IMG/VR virus record: IMGVR_UViG_3300027895_000003
Reading direction: 5' to 3' (one strand)
Source of the DNA: a virus
DNA length: 36,912 bases
Shown here: piece by piece, positions 8,114-33,096 of the stretch
Layout of the letters: the number at the start of each line of letters is the position of its first letter
How positions within the stretch are numbered: position 1 is the first letter of the stretch
Translations under genes and position numbers: made by a program
The notes under the pieces: model-generated
Database searches by the model: none
What the model was told of the DNA's origin: nothing
Seen by the model: only the letters and a program-made list of their open reading frames with translations

Positions 8114-8964
8114 GAGGCGAACGCTCGCATAACCGCTGGTCCGAGGGTTGAGGACGCGACACCGGTGGTCCCGGACGCGTTCAAGATCGCCGTTCCGCCC
8201 GTCGTGGCCCACGCCCAATCGACCTGATACGCGGTACCGGCGACGGTGTTCATGCGGATGTAGACGTGCGCCATCGGGCTTTCCGTGTCCGTGGTCGACG
8301 AATACGCGCTCGCGCTGTAGCCGACCTGGGTCGTCGTGCCGTGCGTGAAGAGCATCCAGATGATCTCGTTCTGCGCTCCGTTGCTGAAAAACCCCGTGTA
8401 GGCCTGGAGCTCGATCAGCGTCTTGGCCGAGATCGCCGTGAAGGGCAGCGTCAGGTGCGTGGTGTCGATGGCGGCCGGGGTCGACGAGCCGATGGAGTAC
8501 GACTGCTCGGGGGACGGCTCGTAGAACGTGGAGGCGAGCTGCTGGTTGAGGGCGGTGGCGCCGTCGGTGGTCGACTGCGGCACGACGTTGACGATCCGTT
8601 GCCCGGCCAGGTTCACCGGACCTGCTGGGTTCGCCATCTGGTCGAGCGTCTGCTCGCGGATCAGGTACTCCACGGCAACGGTGCCGTTGAGCGTCGAGGC
8701 GTTGGAACCCAAGGGGATCGAGACATCCCCGGTGACCGCTGAGCGTGAGATCGTGACCGTCGGGCCTGATCCACCGCTGATGGTGACCGTGCCGTCGCTG
8801 TTCTCGATCAGCGAGATCGAGCCACCGGGGTTGAATCCTTCGATGGCTTGGATCAGCGCCCAGAGCAGTTCACCTGGGCCGTTGGACTCAGGCCGCTCGC
8901 CCCCGAAGGCTTCGATCAGGCCGATCAGAAGCTCGGCTTCGCCGAAGCTGCGGATGATGCTCAT
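8110..8964 (-). CDS. Tail fibre protein (284 aa)
   Basis: The motif ..NLAGQRIVNVVPQSTTDGATALNQQ.. resembles the common fibre motif (L..nrItnla.P....DAvnk). It is rich in T/S/G. Confidence 0.55.
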   Translation of the reverse strand: MSIIRSFGEAELLIGLIEAFGGERPESNGPGELLWALIQAIEGFNPGGSISLIENSDGTVTISGGSGPTVTISRSAVTGDVSIPLGSNASTLNGTVAVEYLIREQTLDQMANPAGPVNLAGQRIVNVVPQSTTDGATALNQQLASTFYEPSPEQSYSIGSSTPAAIDTTHLTLPFTAISAKTLIELQAYTGFFSNGAQNEIIWMLFTHGTTTQVGYSASAYSSTTDTESPMAHVYIRMNTVAGTAYQVDWAWATTGGTAILNASGTTGVASSTLGPAVMRAFAS

Positions 8965-9968
8965 GTGACCGTGGCCAGGTAGTCGGCGTAGAGCGGTCCC
9001 ACCGCGTCCAGGCTGTACTTGGCCACCGCTTCTCGACGGAGCACCTGCGCGGGGTCGTGCGCGGGGCTGCCGATGGCCTTGACGTAGTCGTCCAGGCCGC
9101 GACAGCGCCAGCCCTCGTGGCCATTGCGCACGGTCTCGGGGAAGATGCCCCAGTCAGAGACGATGACCGGTGTGCCGCTGAGCAGGGATTCGATGTGGAC
9201 ACCGCAGAACGGCTCGATGTAGCGGCTCGGGCAGAAGGTGGCGATGGCATGGCCCAGGAGATCTTTTCGTCCCTTGGGGTCGAGTTCGCCCACGTACTCG
9301 ATCTCGCCGGTGAGATCCTTGACGTACTCGGCGTCCTCGAAGACGTGGCCGCCGATCTTGAGTGGCACGCCGGCCTTCTTGCAGGCGGCGATGGCGATGT
9401 CGATGCCCTTGCAGCCTGTGATCCGGCCGAGGAAGGCGAAGTAGTCGCGGCCCTTGGAGACCGCGAAGTCCTTGGGGTCGAAGTAGTTGGGGATCACCGC
9501 GTCGAACTCGGAGCCGTAGGCGCGGTCGATGCCGTAGACGTGGTTGGCCCAGATGTGGGACTCGAAGACGCGGTATTTGGCGAACGTGCCGGTATAGCCC
9601 ACCCCGAACTCGACCACGGGCCAGTGACCGAGAGCGTCCGCGATGGGCTTCTGGGCTGTGCCACCGATCAGGCAGATGATGTCGCCGGATTCGAGATGCT
9701 GAACCAATGCGGCGATGGCCTTGGCGTTGAAGTTCTTGAACAGGAACTCCTCTGGCGTGAAGTCGGGGACGAAGAAGGGGGCGAACTGCATGTCGGTGAC
9801 CTTGACGTACTTGCCCGCCAGCTCCGCCTCGCCGTTGCCGTAGGTAACGACCTCACAACCCTGGTCCGTCATCATCTTGGCGAACTTGGCCACCTTGGCG
9901 GTGTAGGCACACCAGGAGAACTGCGCGGTGAGGTTGGTATGCGGCAGGCCGACGACGTGGAGACGCAT
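8961..9968 (-). CDS. Glycosyltransferase, GT-B fold, GT4-like (335 aa)
   Basis: ATG 9968 ([11 protein letters not shown]..) shares its A with the upstream TGA. The C-terminal motif EPFCGVHIESLLSGTPVIVSDWGIFPETVRNGHEGW matches the GT4 E-x7-E region pattern from recall. Confidence 0.65.
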   Translation of the reverse strand: MRLHVVGLPHTNLTAQFSWCAYTAKVAKFAKMMTDQGCEVVTYGNGEAELAGKYVKVTDMQFAPFFVPDFTPEEFLFKNFNAKAIAALVQHLESGDIICLIGGTAQKPIADALGHWPVVEFGVGYTGTFAKYRVFESHIWANHVYGIDRAYGSEFDAVIPNYFDPKDFAVSKGRDYFAFLGRITGCKGIDIAIAACKKAGVPLKIGGHVFEDAEYVKDLTGEIEYVGELDPKGRKDLLGHAIATFCPSRYIEPFCGVHIESLLSGTPVIVSDWGIFPETVRNGHEGWRCRGLDDYVKAIGSPAHDPAQVLRREAVAKYSLDAVGPLYADYLATVT

Positions 9969-11080
9969 CAGGCCATCTGGTAGATGATGACGTAGCCACT
10001 CCCGCCGGTGCCGCCCGCACCTGCGGAGGTCCCGGCCCCCCCACCTCCACCGCCTCCACCGGTATTGGCCGACGCAGTGCCTCCTGGTCCACCCACACCC
10101 GACGAACCGTTCGTGCCGTTGCCGCCTCCACCGGCGCCACCACCTCCACCACCGAGCGCTGCCCCGGTGCCACCGGTGCCGCCGGCCTGGCCACCGCCGG
10201 CACCGCCGGCAGCCGAGGTCGGGCCACCACCACCGCCTCCGCCCGAGCCATATCGCATCTGGCCGGGACCACCACGGGCGCCTGCTCCTGACGTGGTGGC
10301 ACCCCATCCACCAGCGGTGCCTGAGCCAGCGCCGGTGCTGCCGGCTGGCTGTTGACCGTCACCTCCAGTACCGCCAACACCCGCCGAACTCCCTCCTAAT
10401 CCTAGAATGCCACCCTTGGCTGTGACCAGAGACCCGATGGAAGTGTTGTTGCCAGTAGACCCCGCCGTGCCACCAGTGCCGATGGTCACCGTCTGGTTAC
10501 CGGTCACATTGCCCAGGTAGAAGAGCGGCAGGACCTCGCCTCCGCCTCCGCCTCCTCCACCGGTTGAGGTCGACGCGGCACCTCCACCACCACCTCCTGC
10601 AACAACGAGGGCGGCGAAGATGGCGCTGCCGGTGGTCGACGGGGTCCAGGTCGGCGTGCCGCTGGTGAAGGTGGCCGGGGCGGCGAGAACCGTGCCCGAG
10701 GCTCCTGTGGCACCGGTGACCCCCGTAGGCCCTGTGGGTCCGGTTGCGCCAGCGACCCCGGTAGCCCCTGTCACACCGACAACGCCGGTCGGACCGGTCG
10801 GGCCGGCTGAACCGGTCGCCCCGGTTGCCCCTGTGGGGCCTCCAGCGGGTCCTGTAGCCCCGGTGACCCCTGCTGCGCCCGAGGAGCCTGTAGCCCCGGT
10901 TACGCCCGCTCCGGTGGCTCCTGAGACCCCTGTAGGACCCGTCGGGCCGGCTGAACCGGTCGCACCTGTGGCGCCAGTCGGTCCACCCGAGGCTCCGGTC
11001 GCGCCTGTCGGACCGGTGGGTCCTGCAGCTCCCCCTCCGCCTCCACCCCCGGCGAACTCACCCCCGGTGCCGATGGGCAT
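9968..11080 (-). CDS. Collagen-like (G-X-Y) plus glycine-rich-domain fibre protein (370 aa)
   Basis: There are about 37 uninterrupted Gly-X-Y triplets ([13 protein letters not shown]..). Poly-Gly tracts follow, and the protein ends ..[12 protein letters not shown], typical of glycine-rich minor tail proteins. Confidence 0.75.
10690..11020 (-). repeat. Collagen-triplet coding repeat with an internal imperfect 144-nt (48-aa) duplication
   Basis: [21 protein letters not shown] occurs at residues 32 and 80. The underlying DNA is similar but not identical. Confidence 0.8.
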
Positions 11081-15619: not shown

Positions 15620-15750
15620 CGTGGCAGCTTCATGTAGTGGTGGCACCCCATTCGCTTGCACTTGAAGGTCACGTAGTTAGAACCACCGCTCCAACGTTCC
15701 ATGCGGGGCCCAGCGAACTTGCACCACCATGACCTATGCATCCACATCAT
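15616..15750 (-). CDS. Cys/His/Trp-rich micro-protein (44 aa): MMWMHRSWWCKFAGPRMERWSGGSNYVTFKCKRMGCHHYMKLPR
   Basis: TGATG coupling to ERF and GTGA coupling to HNH. It is below the ORF-track cutoff. Confidence 0.45.
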   Translation of the reverse strand: MMWMHRSWWCKFAGPRMERWSGGSNYVTFKCKRMGCHHYMKLPR

Positions 15751-16397
15751 CACTTGAGCAGGTCTATCGCTGCGCCGGCCTGGGACTTCGACAGCTTGTG
15801 GATCGAGCCGGGCCACGGGCCGACGTTCTGCTCCATCCACTGTTGGCCCGCGGCTCCGTCCCCTATCCCGTTGTCGTCGAGCAGCTTCTTGAGGTAGCCG
15901 ATCTGCTTGGCGCTCGCCAGGTTGGGGTCCGCGGGCACTTCGTCGGGGACGAGTTTGGGCTCCTTGACCTCGCCGGCCACGAACGGGCGCTGTGGGGGTC
16001 GGATCGCCTTCTCGGCGTCGTCGTCCTTGTCGGCGTTGATGCGCAAGATGGCGCACGTCGCGTAGCGGCGCAGATACGTGATTCCCGAGCCTTGTCCCTG
16101 TGGGTCGTTCTTCGCCATGACCAGGGGGGTATCTGACTCCATCCACTCGCCAGACACGTGCCCGAGCAACGAGGCGAGGCCCGGCTGGCCGTCCTCCATG
16201 ACGCAGGGGAACTGGGTGAGCACCAGGCCCACGTTGTGCAGGTACGGGTTGATGGCCTTGTCGATGGCCCCTTGGCTGGCGAACTCGTTGCCGAAGTGGG
16301 GGTTGACCGAGTCCTTGACCACGCTCATCCCTTCGGAGGCGTGGAGGCTGTCGAGCGCCGCGAGCAGGAACTTTATGGACTCAGACTTGCGGATCAT
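15750..16397 (-). CDS. ERF-family single-strand annealing protein (215 aa)
   Basis: ATG 16397 has GGAGG 8 nt upstream. The pattern ..LLGHVSGEWMES......PQGQGSGITYLRRYATCAILRINADKDDD.. matches the ERF core from recall. Confidence 0.6.
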   Translation of the reverse strand: MIRKSESIKFLLAALDSLHASEGMSVVKDSVNPHFGNEFASQGAIDKAINPYLHNVGLVLTQFPCVMEDGQPGLASLLGHVSGEWMESDTPLVMAKNDPQGQGSGITYLRRYATCAILRINADKDDDAEKAIRPPQRPFVAGEVKEPKLVPDEVPADPNLASAKQIGYLKKLLDDNGIGDGAAGQQWMEQNVGPWPGSIHKLSKSQAGAAIDLLK

Positions 16398-16617
16398 CGG
16401 TCGCCTCCAACACAAAGGTAGACGTGCCCAGGATCTCGGTCTGGGGGCACTTGAAGTAACGCGCCAGGGCGCGGAGGTGCTTGGGACGGATCGGCTCGTA
16501 GCCGAGCGCGTAGCGCGTCAGCTGGCTCGGGTGGATGCCGATCTTGGCTGCGATCTTGTAGGCGGCCACGTCGGCCTCGAGGAGCTTCACCTTGAGGTTG
16601 GTGATCGTGCGCTCCAC
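16381..16617 (-). CDS. XRE/Cro-CI-type HTH regulator (78 aa), apparently leaderless
   Basis: The HTH segment is VAAYKIAAKIGIHPSQLTRYALGYEP. The GTG start lies 6 nt after a near-consensus -10 element. Confidence 0.65.
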   Translation of the reverse strand: MERTITNLKVKLLEADVAAYKIAAKIGIHPSQLTRYALGYEPIRPKHLRALARYFKCPQTEILGTSTFVLEATDDPQV

Positions 16618-31926: not shown

Positions 31927-32145
31927 TCAGGCGGGTGGACCCGCCACTCTGTCCCGGCGCACGAACGGGCCGACGGCCCACGCCCAGCCGGTCAAGAGGT
32001 CGACGAAGAAGCTCAAGAGCGCGGCGCAGAGCCAGGTGTACCAGGTGACCCCGAAGAGCTGGCCCGGCGAGGAGCCCGTCGTGATCGCCGTGGCGATGAT
32101 GGCGAAGACGATGAGGACGATGGCCCCGATGATGAAGATCCTCAT
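31927..32145 (-). CDS. Small membrane protein (72 aa, 2 TM)
   Basis: Hydrophobic segments IFIIGAIVLIVFAIIATAI and WLCAALLSFFVDLL. Confidence 0.55.
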   Translation of the reverse strand: MRIFIIGAIVLIVFAIIATAITTGSSPGQLFGVTWYTWLCAALLSFFVDLLTGWAWAVGPFVRRDRVAGPPA

Positions 32146-32639
32146 GCCACCGTGATGACGGCGGTGGTGGCCTGGTTCGTCGTCGACGCGGTCACGGTCT
32201 CGGAGACCGGCGCCGGCTGGATGAAGGCGGTCACGCCATCGTCGTCTTCGAGGGCCGCACCGCTCTGGTTGAGCACCGTGGCCCCCAGGTTGTAGGAGCC
32301 TGCCGCTACACCGGTCACCGTGGCCGAGTAGTTGCCGTTGCCGGCCGAGTCGGTGCCCGCGATGGCGGTGCCAACCGTGGCGACGGTCGGGGTGTCGGAA
32401 GTGAAGGTGACAGCGAGGCCCGAGCCGTCACCGGTCGGGGGTGCGGCGGCTGTGCCGACGGCGACGTCAACGAAGCCCAGAGTGGCGGTTGTGGTCCCAC
32501 CTACGGTCAGTGGCATGTCTGCTCCTTCGAGGGTAATGGCCGCGGAGACGGCCTGGTGGTCAAGAACTCCCCAGATCTTACGCAGAAGACGCTCAATCTC
32601 GCGGAGCAGTTTTACCTCTTCGCGGTCGAGCCAGGGCAC
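32142..32639 (-). CDS. Ig-like (BIG2-type) domain protein (165 aa; alternative start ATG at about 32516)
   Basis: ..YSATVTGVAAGSYNLGATV.. is Ig-like. GTG 32639 has AAGG 5 nt upstream. The first ~40 codons have lower GC3, and an internal ATG has a GAAGGAG SD. Confidence 0.5.
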   Translation of the reverse strand: MPWLDREEVKLLREIERLLRKIWGVLDHQAVSAAITLEGADMPLTVGGTTTATLGFVDVAVGTAAAPPTGDGSGLAVTFTSDTPTVATVGTAIAGTDSAGNGNYSATVTGVAAGSYNLGATVLNQSGAALEDDDGVTAFIQPAPVSETVTASTTNQATTAVITVA

Positions 32640-32654
32640 ACCACAACCTTACAT

Positions 32655-32690
32655 GCGGAACCCCCGGCCAAGAAGTACCGGGGGTTCCGC
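32655..32690. terminator. Perfect 13-bp stem / 10-nt loop hairpin (GCGGAACCCCCGG..CCGGGGGTTCCGC)
   Basis: The arms are exact reverse complements. There is no U-tract on either strand. It sits 15 nt upstream of the 32639 start, at the end of the non-coding island. Confidence 0.45.
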
Positions 32691-32792
32691 ACACGTGGCC
32701 GCTCTTAAGGAGCCAACAGCAGCGGGGGAGGGTCTGCGTCTCGCCCGTCTACCGTTGACAAACTTAACACGGCGGCGCGACAGTTGGCACTT

Positions 32793-32868
32793 AGCAGCGT
32801 GGAGCAGGAGTAGCTCGCCAGGCTCATAACCTGGAGGTCGCGTGGTGCAAATCCCGCCGCTGCCACCA
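32793..32868 (+). tRNA. tRNA-Met(CAU)-like gene, initiator-like, with encoded CCA and an aberrant T-arm
   Basis: Manual fold: acceptor AGCAGCG/CGCTGCC (position 1:72 is an A-C mismatch), D-stem GAGC/GCTC, anticodon stem CCAGG/CCTGG, loop CTCATAA. The T-arm GCG(T)GG-TGCAAAT-CCCGC has a bulged T, and G replaces the near-universal U55. The sequence resembles bacterial initiator tRNA (TGGAGCAG..GTAGCTCG..GGCTCATAACC). Confidence 0.55.
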
Positions 32869-32980
32869 CGGATAGGGTCTGCGGTCTGCACTCCCGCGCG
32901 TGACACGAACGGCGGAGACGCCACGGACCTCACGCGCCGGTTGAGCGCCGGCATCAGCGGAGAAGATGCTGCCCTCCTTG

Positions 32981-33016
32981 CCACAGTCCACAGCTTGTAC
33001 AGCTGCCTGTGGATAA
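32981..33016. promoter_or_regulatory. Inverted cluster of CCACAG/TCCACA boxes, including a perfect TTATCCACA (DnaA-box consensus, minus strand, 33008..33016)
   Basis: The sequence is CCACAGTCCACAG-CTTGTACAGCTGC-CTGTGGATAA. There are two direct CCACAG copies, one inverted copy, and a central 5-bp-arm palindrome (32991..33005). Confidence 0.35.
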
Positions 33017-33096
33017 CTCAGGGCGAGGGTTTCGGTAAGGCTGTCTGCGCGCGTTTGGGTTGAAGAGTCAGAGGCCAGTCAAGGGCGGCTATTGGG

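What the first reader, a model, noticed from the sequence alone, without database searches (positions are those of the whole stretch)
32793..32868. Reverse-oriented, initiator-like tRNA-Met with a non-canonical T-arm
The only RNA gene I can fold lies on the plus strand, antisense to every flanking gene, inside the non-coding island.

Initiator-type traits:
- No Watson-Crick pair at position 1:72 (A opposite C).
- G2:C71 and C3:G70 pairs.
- A purine-11:pyrimidine-24 D-stem identical to bacterial tRNA-fMet (GAGC/GCTC).
- A CAU anticodon in a CTCATAA loop.
- An encoded CCA end.

Deviations:
- Only two of the three hallmark G:C pairs are present in the anticodon stem (A29:T41 replaces the third).
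- The 5' strand of the T-stem has a bulged T.
- The T-loop reads TGCAAAT, with G where U55 is almost universal.

Upstream lies TTGACA (32755..32760), an 18-nt spacer, then GACAGT, which would place a transcription start at about the tRNA 5' end. A GC-rich stem-loop (32896..32937) follows 28 nt downstream.

Candidate interpretations are a functional phage initiator tRNA, a decaying tRNA, or a tRNA-like decoy or attachment remnant. The first would be interesting given the apparently leaderless phage mRNAs.
Basis: partly seen in the sequence, partly recalled or inferred. Interest (0 to 1): 0.6.

Follow-up and report, generated by a model that had tools for sequence, protein, structure and literature searches.

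The report
Phage initiator tRNA with swapped elbow
A small soil phage carries a single start-codon tRNA gene in which a near-universal corner contact of tRNA (G18 with U55) is replaced by a matched A18 with G55; the same design is the only initiator found in many ultra-small bacteria, so it probably works, and it removes the site that a published anti-phage nuclease needs in order to cut tRNA.

Summary
The tRNA is real (ARAGORN; Rfam 52.9 bits) and every listed trait is there. A18 and G55 go together without exception in viral CAU tRNAs (94/94 with G55 have A18; 92/92 whole tRNAs with A18 have G55), and this A18/G55, A29:U41 design is the only initiator-type match in 33 genomes of one Patescibacteria family. 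So G55 is half of an alternative elbow (like riboswitch UGNRA T-loops with an intercalated A), not decay. A29:U41 and A1xC72 are ordinary in phage initiators. The T-stem bulge is the one doubtful trait, yet the same bulge sits in initiator genes of two Streptomyces plasmids. The window is a complete 36.8-kb actinophage-like genome. Ten related contigs keep a conserved structured RNA-like element, nine also the promoter-like motif, but none has the tRNA: it is an accessory insertion between the two, and the 'stem-loop' is not its terminator. Best reading: a working accessory initiator tRNA, possibly resistant to T-loop nucleases (Cash needs U55). Expression and function are untested. This scan noted the A18/G55 swap before on other DNA (77 findings); I found no paper describing it.

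The parts
32793..32868 (+). initiator-type tRNA-Met(CAU) gene, 76 nt, with encoded CCA
   Evidence: ARAGORN; Rfam RF00005 52.9 bits, E 9.2e-9; cloverleaf is the minimum-energy fold
32809..32810 (+). A18-G19 in the 7-nt D-loop (A18 replaces G18)
   Evidence: sequence; covariation with G55
32846..32852 (+). T-loop U54-G55-C56-A57-A58-A59-U60; G55 at 32847; fits the UGHAA riboswitch-type T-loop
   Evidence: sequence; bioRxiv 10.1101/2022.12.26.521914
32843..32843 (+). extra T bulged between T-stem pairs 51:63 and 52:62
   Evidence: costs 3.8 kcal/mol; present at full depth in the probable source run; same bulge in two Streptomyces plasmid initiator genes
32818..32834 (+). anticodon arm with A29:U41, G30:C40, G31:C39 and anticodon CAT at 32825-32827
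   Evidence: sequence; same stem in Myrna and GodonK tRNA-Met and in Patescibacteria initiators
32755..32784 (+). promoter-like motif: TTGACA, 18 nt, GACAGT (inferred; transcription not shown)
   Evidence: TTGACA kept at the matching place in 9 of 10 related phage contigs that lack the tRNA; not called by the strict sigma-70 scan
   Evidence: blastn to relatives; 12 of 26 predicted pairs with changes on both sides; no Rfam match
32655..32690 (.). strong hairpin upstream of the promoter-like motif, a possible terminator or insulator; role not tested
   Evidence: z -5.2 on +, -5.8 on -

Best explanation
This is a working, accessory initiator tRNA of a small actinobacterial phage, built with an alternative elbow. 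Shown: the gene, its initiator hallmarks, the strict A18/G55 covariation, and its insertion into a conserved cassette. Inferred: it is transcribed from the conserved promoter-like motif with a very short leader, together with the downstream structured RNA, and cut out by host RNases. A18 slots between positions 57 and 58 and pairs with G55, as the receptor adenosine does in riboswitch UGNRA T-loops, so the L-shape, G19:C56 and U54-A58 are kept without pseudouridine 55. Host MetRS charges it (CAU, A73), host formylase formylates it (1x72 mismatch, G2:C71, C3:G70, A11:U24), and G30:C40 admits it to the P site. The T-stem bulge lies on the EF-Tu contact face, which an initiator does not need, so it is probably tolerated. 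Why the phage keeps it is the least certain step (about 0.4 within this reading): most likely to keep initiation going when host tRNA is cut during defence, since G55 removes the U54-U55-C56 site that Cash-type Schlafen nucleases require.
For: Covariation in viral CAU tRNAs: 94/94 distinct G55 sequences have A18; 94 of 105 U55 matches have G18 and none of the other 11 is a whole tRNA with A18; 92/92 whole tRNAs found by A18 have G55. The swap recurs in other isotypes and across whole phage arrays. In one Patescibacteria family, 33 genomes have only an A18/G55 initiator-type match (all with A29:U41), 3 have only G18/U55, none has both. A29:U41 is a natural variant and G30:C40 is the essential pair (PMC5389676). 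Mycobacteriophage Myrna has the same A1xC72 and anticodon stem. Riboswitch YGNRA T-loops take an intercalated A in 99.96% of cases. Substitution of U54 or U55 abolishes Cash cleavage, and phage tRNAs are named an open question (PMC13462974). All seven acceptor, four D-stem, five anticodon and five T-stem positions other than 1:72 are Watson-Crick paired although the acceptor stem differs from that of its closest relatives. The bulge recurs.
Against: No transcript, charging or initiation data. The gene is absent from all 10 related contigs at this site and from 5 whole records, 2 of them complete, so it is dispensable, and I have a single copy, with no way to measure selection on it. The bulge costs 3.8 kcal/mol and 75 of the 76 nearest whole sequences lack it. 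The cellular examples show that the elbow works in Patescibacteria, not in an actinobacterial host. Chromosomal A18/G55 tRNAs in Patescibacteria and DPANN archaea mean that counter-defence cannot be the only reason for the design. The Cash paper does not say which base replaced U55 in the passages I read, and no Cash system is known for the host, which is unidentified.
Confidence: 0.68

Rival explanations
1. A recently acquired A18/G55 initiator gene that has been damaged by a 1-nt insertion and is now a neutral passenger or in early decay.
For: Absent from all relatives; the bulge is destabilising and rare (1 of 76 nearest sequences); single observation.
Against: No other lesion: all stems are paired and CCA is intact. 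The same bulge occurs at the same place in two Streptomyces plasmid initiator genes. An extra T-stem base occurs in at least 6 other distinct viral A18/G55 initiators, in some with compensatory stem changes around it. The gene sits exactly behind a conserved promoter-like motif.
Confidence: 0.15
2. The RNA is made but does not act in translation: it is a decoy or inhibitor for tRNA-directed host enzymes (initiator-specific VapC nucleases, acetyltransferases), or a processing signal whose cleavage matures the downstream structured RNA.
For: It is inserted between the promoter-like motif and the conserved element. Natural G55 tRNAs in Staphylococcus are non-translational (PMC7826273, PMC13443448). 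The bulge would weaken T-stem contacts.
Against: Relatives make do without it, so processing of the downstream RNA does not need it. The staphylococcal tRNAs lack G18-G19 altogether and have weak EF-Tu pairs, whereas this one keeps G19 and every initiator determinant. A decoy should mimic the host's elbow, not change it.
Confidence: 0.13
3. An attachment-site (attP) remnant or a sequencing artefact.
For: 3' fragments of initiator tRNAs do occur in viral contigs. About 30 long ORFs were scanned and most have no family match, so a very divergent recombinase is not strictly excluded.
Against: Full-length gene with both halves; no integrase hit in Pfam or PHROGs; best matches to cultured phages and plasmids are about 80-86% identical, not near-identical. 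The tRNA piece is assembled at depth 74.8 against 75.4 for the genome, with no differences (this run may be the source).
Confidence: 0.04

Closest known systems
Bacterial initiator tRNA-fMet (E. coli metZWV/metY type; PMC5389676)
   Same: CAU anticodon, 1x72 mismatch, G2:C71, C3:G70, A11:U24, A73, G30:C40 and G31:C39
   Different: A1xC72 rather than C1xA72; A29:U41; 7-nt D-loop with A18; G55; bulged T-stem
Initiator tRNA-Met genes of actinophages Myrna (NC_011273.1), GodonK (MK620899.1) and Bxz1 (NC_004687.1)
   Same: Myrna and Bxz1 have A1xC72; Myrna and GodonK have the identical anticodon stem with A29:U41
   Different: They keep G18/U55 and a 5-bp T-stem and lie in large tRNA arrays of 120-165 kb genomes; here one gene in 36.8 kb
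Chromosomal initiator-type tRNAs of Patescibacteria (e.g. Ca. Adlerbacteria, DAIDHJ010000001.1)
   Same: A18/G55 elbow, 7-nt D-loop, A29:U41, often the same anticodon arm
   Different: A1xA72, G-rich acceptor stem, no bulge, usually no encoded CCA; cellular and single copy
tRNA-fMet genes on Streptomyces linear plasmids pFRL6 (NC_023286.1) and NZ_CP109315.1
   Same: The variable loop and T-arm match the window's except at position 55, including the bulged T
   Different: Canonical G18/U55 elbow, three G:C pairs, different acceptor and anticodon stems
YGNRA T-loop / T-loop receptor module of FMN and cobalamin riboswitches (bioRxiv 10.1101/2022.12.26.521914)
   Same: G at T-loop position 2 with an adenosine intercalated between positions 4 and 5; UGHAA favoured
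   Different: Not a tRNA; the geometry in this tRNA is inferred by analogy, not solved
Staphylococcal non-proteogenic tRNA-Gly NP1-3 (PMC7826273, PMC13443448)
   Same: TGC or TGT in place of TTC in the T-loop; no pseudouridine 55
   Different: They lack G18-G19, have weak EF-Tu pairs and serve cell-wall synthesis; this one keeps G19 and has initiator identity
Phage tRNAs that evade host anticodon nucleases (PMC10264068)
   Same: Phage-encoded tRNA differing from host tRNA at a nuclease target site (proposed here)
   Different: Those changes are in the anticodon loop; the paper does not mention T- or D-loops

Membership tests
tRNA (RF00005) | Cloverleaf scoring above the curated threshold | tested here: met
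   52.9 bits against 29; ARAGORN
tRNA (RF00005) | Canonical G18-U55 elbow contact | tested here: not met
   A18 and G55; G19, C56, U54 and A58 are kept
Bacterial initiator tRNA-fMet | No Watson-Crick pair at 1:72, with G2:C71, C3:G70 and A73 | tested here: met
   A1xC72
Bacterial initiator tRNA-fMet | Purine 11 : pyrimidine 24 | tested here: met
   A11:U24
Bacterial initiator tRNA-fMet | Three consecutive G:C pairs in the anticodon stem | tested here: not met
   A29:U41, G30:C40, G31:C39. The relaxed rule (middle pair essential, first pair AU in nature; PMC5389676) is met, so I call it initiator-type
Bacterial initiator tRNA-fMet | Methionylated, formylated and used at the P site | not testable with these tools
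   needs biochemistry or complementation
Elongator tRNA-Met or tRNA-Ile2 (CAU) | Paired 1:72 and pyrimidine 11 : purine 24 | tested here: not met
   compare the elongator CAU genes
A18/G55 elbow tRNAs (class seen in this scan, no paper found) | A18 with G19, and U54-G55-C56 with A58 | tested here: met
Staphylococcal non-proteogenic tRNA-Gly | Glycine identity, loss of G18-G19, weak EF-Tu pairs | tested here: not met
   CAU anticodon, G19 present, G:C-rich 49-51 pairs
attP remnant of a tRNA-targeting integrative phage | Partial near-identical copy of a host tRNA beside an integrase | tested here: not met
   full-length gene; no integrase hit; host unknown, so identity to its tRNA could not be measured
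Defence-evading phage tRNA | Resists a host tRNA nuclease and rescues infection | not testable with these tools
   only the sequence prerequisite (no U55) is met; PMC13462974

The most novel reading that the evidence does not exclude
The phage carries a nuclease-proof initiator tRNA: the A18/G55 elbow is a second, modification-free way to lock the tRNA fold that phages adopt repeatedly because it removes the U55 site cut by broad T-loop nucleases such as Cash, while the T-stem bulge confines the tRNA to initiation. One small gene would then keep translation starting after a defence that destroys most host tRNAs.
Probability: 0.27. Interest if true: 0.8.

Novelty: new variant of a known kind. 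Interest (0 to 1): 0.55.

Why it matters
G18-pseudouridine 55 is taught as a near-invariant tRNA contact. A natural, strictly covarying substitute that is the only initiator-type gene found in dozens of bacterial genomes means that the ribosome, synthetase and processing enzymes accept a second elbow. A 2020 review of non-canonical tRNAs does not mention it. It also makes an open question directly testable: the Cash paper asks whether phage tRNAs are targeted, and this 76-nt gene and its two-base revertant are a ready pair of substrates. Within the class this window is one more example, notable for being a lone gene in a small actinophage, for its bulged T-stem, and for being inserted in front of an undescribed conserved phage RNA.

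Tried and rejected
No RNA holder listed for this stretch; this says nothing about expression. No whole genome (G000) is held, but the window is itself a closed genome. The strict sigma-70 scan finds no promoter or terminator here; support for the promoter rests on conservation only. My recollection of a 'GANNNT' class of Streptomyces -10 elements was not borne out by the paper I checked (PMC6344877: it reports only that T at -12 is less conserved when G lies upstream); the sixth base of the hexamer is T in only 4 of the 9 loci with the motif (window included), so the -10 register is uncertain. Loss of TruB as the reason for A18/G55 in Patescibacteria was rejected: 60 of 61 genomes keep a TruB-like gene. 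The formylase search there was inconclusive (weak hits). The host could not be named: the WhiB search gave only 4 close proteins, and no actinobacterial genome handle was available to test whether chromosomal initiators carry the bulge. The excess of T-stem bulges in the G55 class is borderline (6/122 against 0/91; p 0.039 with the window, 0.072 without). Nine literature searches ran and none found a description of natural A18/G55 tRNAs (bear on it). I recall that suppressor-library work from the Steinberg laboratory may have recovered engineered A18/G55 combinations; these papers are not held, so this is unchecked memory. I did not build a tree: the donor of the gene cannot be told from 76 nt, and it looks like a mosaic of actinophage, Streptomyces-plasmid and Patescibacteria-like parts.

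Full report
Observation. ARAGORN finds one tRNA in the window, Met(CAT) at 32793-32868 (+), and Rfam RF00005 scores it 52.9 bits against a threshold of 29, E 9.2e-9. The predicted fold is the cloverleaf with an unpaired 1:72 position and one bulged U in the T-stem. Each trait listed is in the sequence. The bulged T at 32843 is not a low-coverage error: in the soil run that probably gave the window, the piece 32811-32927 is assembled at depth 74.8 against 75.4 for the rest, with no differences (not independent support).

Setting. The window is a closed genome, with a 127-nt terminal overlap. Portal, major capsid, terminase and WhiB genes are on the minus strand. WhiB homologues in cultured phages are almost all from actinophages, so the host is inferred to be an actinobacterium. 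No integrase was found among about 30 long ORFs.

The D-loop is 7 nt and has A18-G19, not G18-G19. I tested whether this goes with G55 by three scans of viral contigs anchored on the CAU loop. With G55 fixed, 94 of 94 distinct sequences have A18. With U55 fixed, 94 of 105 have G18; the other 11 are mostly fragments without a D-arm, and none is a whole tRNA with A18. With A18 fixed, all 92 whole tRNAs have G55. The swap is not limited to methionine: 56 distinct non-CAU tRNAs in the fetched viral loci have it by a rough parse, and in some arrays nearly every gene does.

Does this design work? A scan of prokaryotic genomes returned 120 hits, mostly Patescibacteria and DPANN archaea; 56 are CAU and 36 are Gly-GCC. 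The sequences nearest to the window's tRNA are initiator-type genes of this kind. In 61 genomes of the family of a Ca. Adlerbacteria genome, 36 match an initiator pattern that leaves positions 18 and 55 open: 33 have A18 with G55, 3 have G18 with U55, and none has both (one of the three, G117, is unpublished, and the claim stands without it). In five genomes searched with a looser pattern, the A18/G55 gene was again the only initiator-type match. These are incomplete assemblies, but a canonical second copy missing from all 33 is unlikely. Across the whole class U55 is commoner (13 against 3), so the swap is lineage-restricted. These genomes keep a TruB-like gene, so loss of the pseudouridine synthase does not explain it.

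How the elbow probably folds. In FMN and cobalamin riboswitches, T-loops of consensus YGNRA take an intercalated adenosine between positions 4 and 5 in 99.96% of cases, and UGHAA is favoured (bioRxiv 10.1101/2022.12.26.521914). In tRNA, base 18 occupies that slot and contacts base 55 (established knowledge; PMC7609411, for the 18-55 and 19-56 contacts). The window's loop begins UGCAA and its D-loop offers A18. I infer the same module here, with G19:C56 and U54-A58 unchanged. No structure has been solved.

The other deviations. A29:U41 is ordinary. Among viral CAU tRNAs with purine 11:pyrimidine 24, this stem occurs in 18 of 87 with G55 and 14 of 51 with U55, all three G:C pairs in only 9 and 14, and G30:C40 in 76 and 50. 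An AU first pair is known from mycoplasmas and alpha-proteobacteria, and the middle pair is the essential one (PMC5389676). Mycobacteriophage Myrna has A1xC72 and the same anticodon stem with a canonical elbow. The bulge is the only doubtful trait. It costs 3.8 kcal/mol, and 75 of the 76 nearest whole sequences lack it. But an extra 5' T-stem base occurs in nine viral contigs, six distinct sequences, mostly next to pair 53:61 and with compensatory changes in the stem around it. The identical bulge is in canonical initiator genes on two Streptomyces plasmids, whose variable loop and T-arm differ from the window's only at position 55. Those two plasmid copies may share one origin and their function is unknown. 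Pairs 49-51 are the EF-Tu contact (PMC7826273), which an initiator does not use, so tolerance is plausible (inference).

The cassette. Related phages (64-87% portal identity, plus four found by a shared motif) keep the stretch 32898-33040. Nine of ten also keep TTGACA 61-93 nt upstream of its core; in the window the distance is 148 nt, and the difference is about the size of the tRNA. None has a tRNA at this site, and five whole records, two of them complete, have none at all. So the tRNA is an accessory insertion behind a conserved promoter-like motif. The downstream element has 12 of 26 predicted pairs with changes on both sides and 92% of cells paired, against 32-43% for slid controls (the structure was derived from the same alignment, which favours it). 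It matches no Rfam family. It is better read as part of this element than as a terminator for the tRNA.

Purpose. Cash, a Schlafen nuclease of type III CRISPR systems, cuts many tRNAs just 5' of U55 in the T-loop, and substitution of U54 or U55 abolishes cutting; whether phage tRNAs are targets is left open (PMC13462974). Phage tRNAs that escape anticodon nucleases are documented (PMC10264068). An A18/G55 initiator would be the T-loop counterpart, and whole-array conversion in other phages fits such a pressure. This remains a hypothesis: the host and its defences are unknown, and cellular lineages use the same elbow. The link to leaderless mRNAs is not supported.

Comparison and verdict. It works like a bacterial initiator tRNA and meets the relaxed, not the strict, anticodon-stem rule. 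It is not an elongator Met or Ile2 tRNA, not a staphylococcal-type non-proteogenic tRNA and not an att remnant. It is a member of an A18/G55 class that I could not find in the papers searched and that this scan has noted on other DNA (77 findings; AI notes, used as leads only, and my covariation result came before I read them, apart from one short note). Novelty: new variant of a known kind. Interest 0.55.

Noticed in passing
window 32898-33040 (+): Conserved structured RNA-like element of this phage clade, with compensatory changes, no Rfam match, behind a conserved promoter-like motif and antisense to the late genes; found in 10 related contigs. It may deserve its own study.
   Followed up: partly
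L614:2995-3072 (NC_023286.1) and L625:2476-2553 (NZ_CP109315.1): Streptomyces linear plasmids carry a tRNA-fMet gene with the same bulged T-stem as the window but a canonical elbow.
   Followed up: partly
L127:1500-1576 (phage CBW1004C-Prop1, MZ188970.1): Unannotated A18/G55 initiator-type tRNA between a GIY-YIG nuclease gene and the lysis genes, downstream of antiterminator Q; the only one with this elbow among the 13 GenBank phage records I fetched.
   Followed up: partly
L247, L355, L261, L014, L034 (IMG/VR contigs): tRNA arrays in which most genes, of many isotypes, have A18/G55; some also change the 54-58 pair (A54 with U58, or G54).
   Followed up: partly
L368-L483 (Patescibacteria genomes); L375, L402, L406 (Micrarchaeota and other archaea): Chromosomal tRNA-Gly(GCC) of many Patescibacteria and tRNA-Ala of Micrarchaeota, including a complete cultured genome (NZ_CP060530.1), carry A18/G55.
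   Followed up: no
window 32655-32690: Very strong hairpin (z about -5 on both strands) between the minus-strand gene at 32142-32519 and the promoter-like motif; a weaker counterpart is in L119.
   Followed up: no
L617, L618, L622 (PaMx74, R6L, Elanor): Small cultured phages carry a lone, unannotated initiator-type tRNA (canonical elbow) right after the terminase gene, so a single initiator tRNA near the packaging module is a recurring arrangement.
   Followed up: no
window 8961-10307 (-) and 15750-16415 (-): A group 1 glycosyltransferase and an ERF-family single-strand annealing protein; no integrase or DNA polymerase was recognised in the genome.
   Followed up: no
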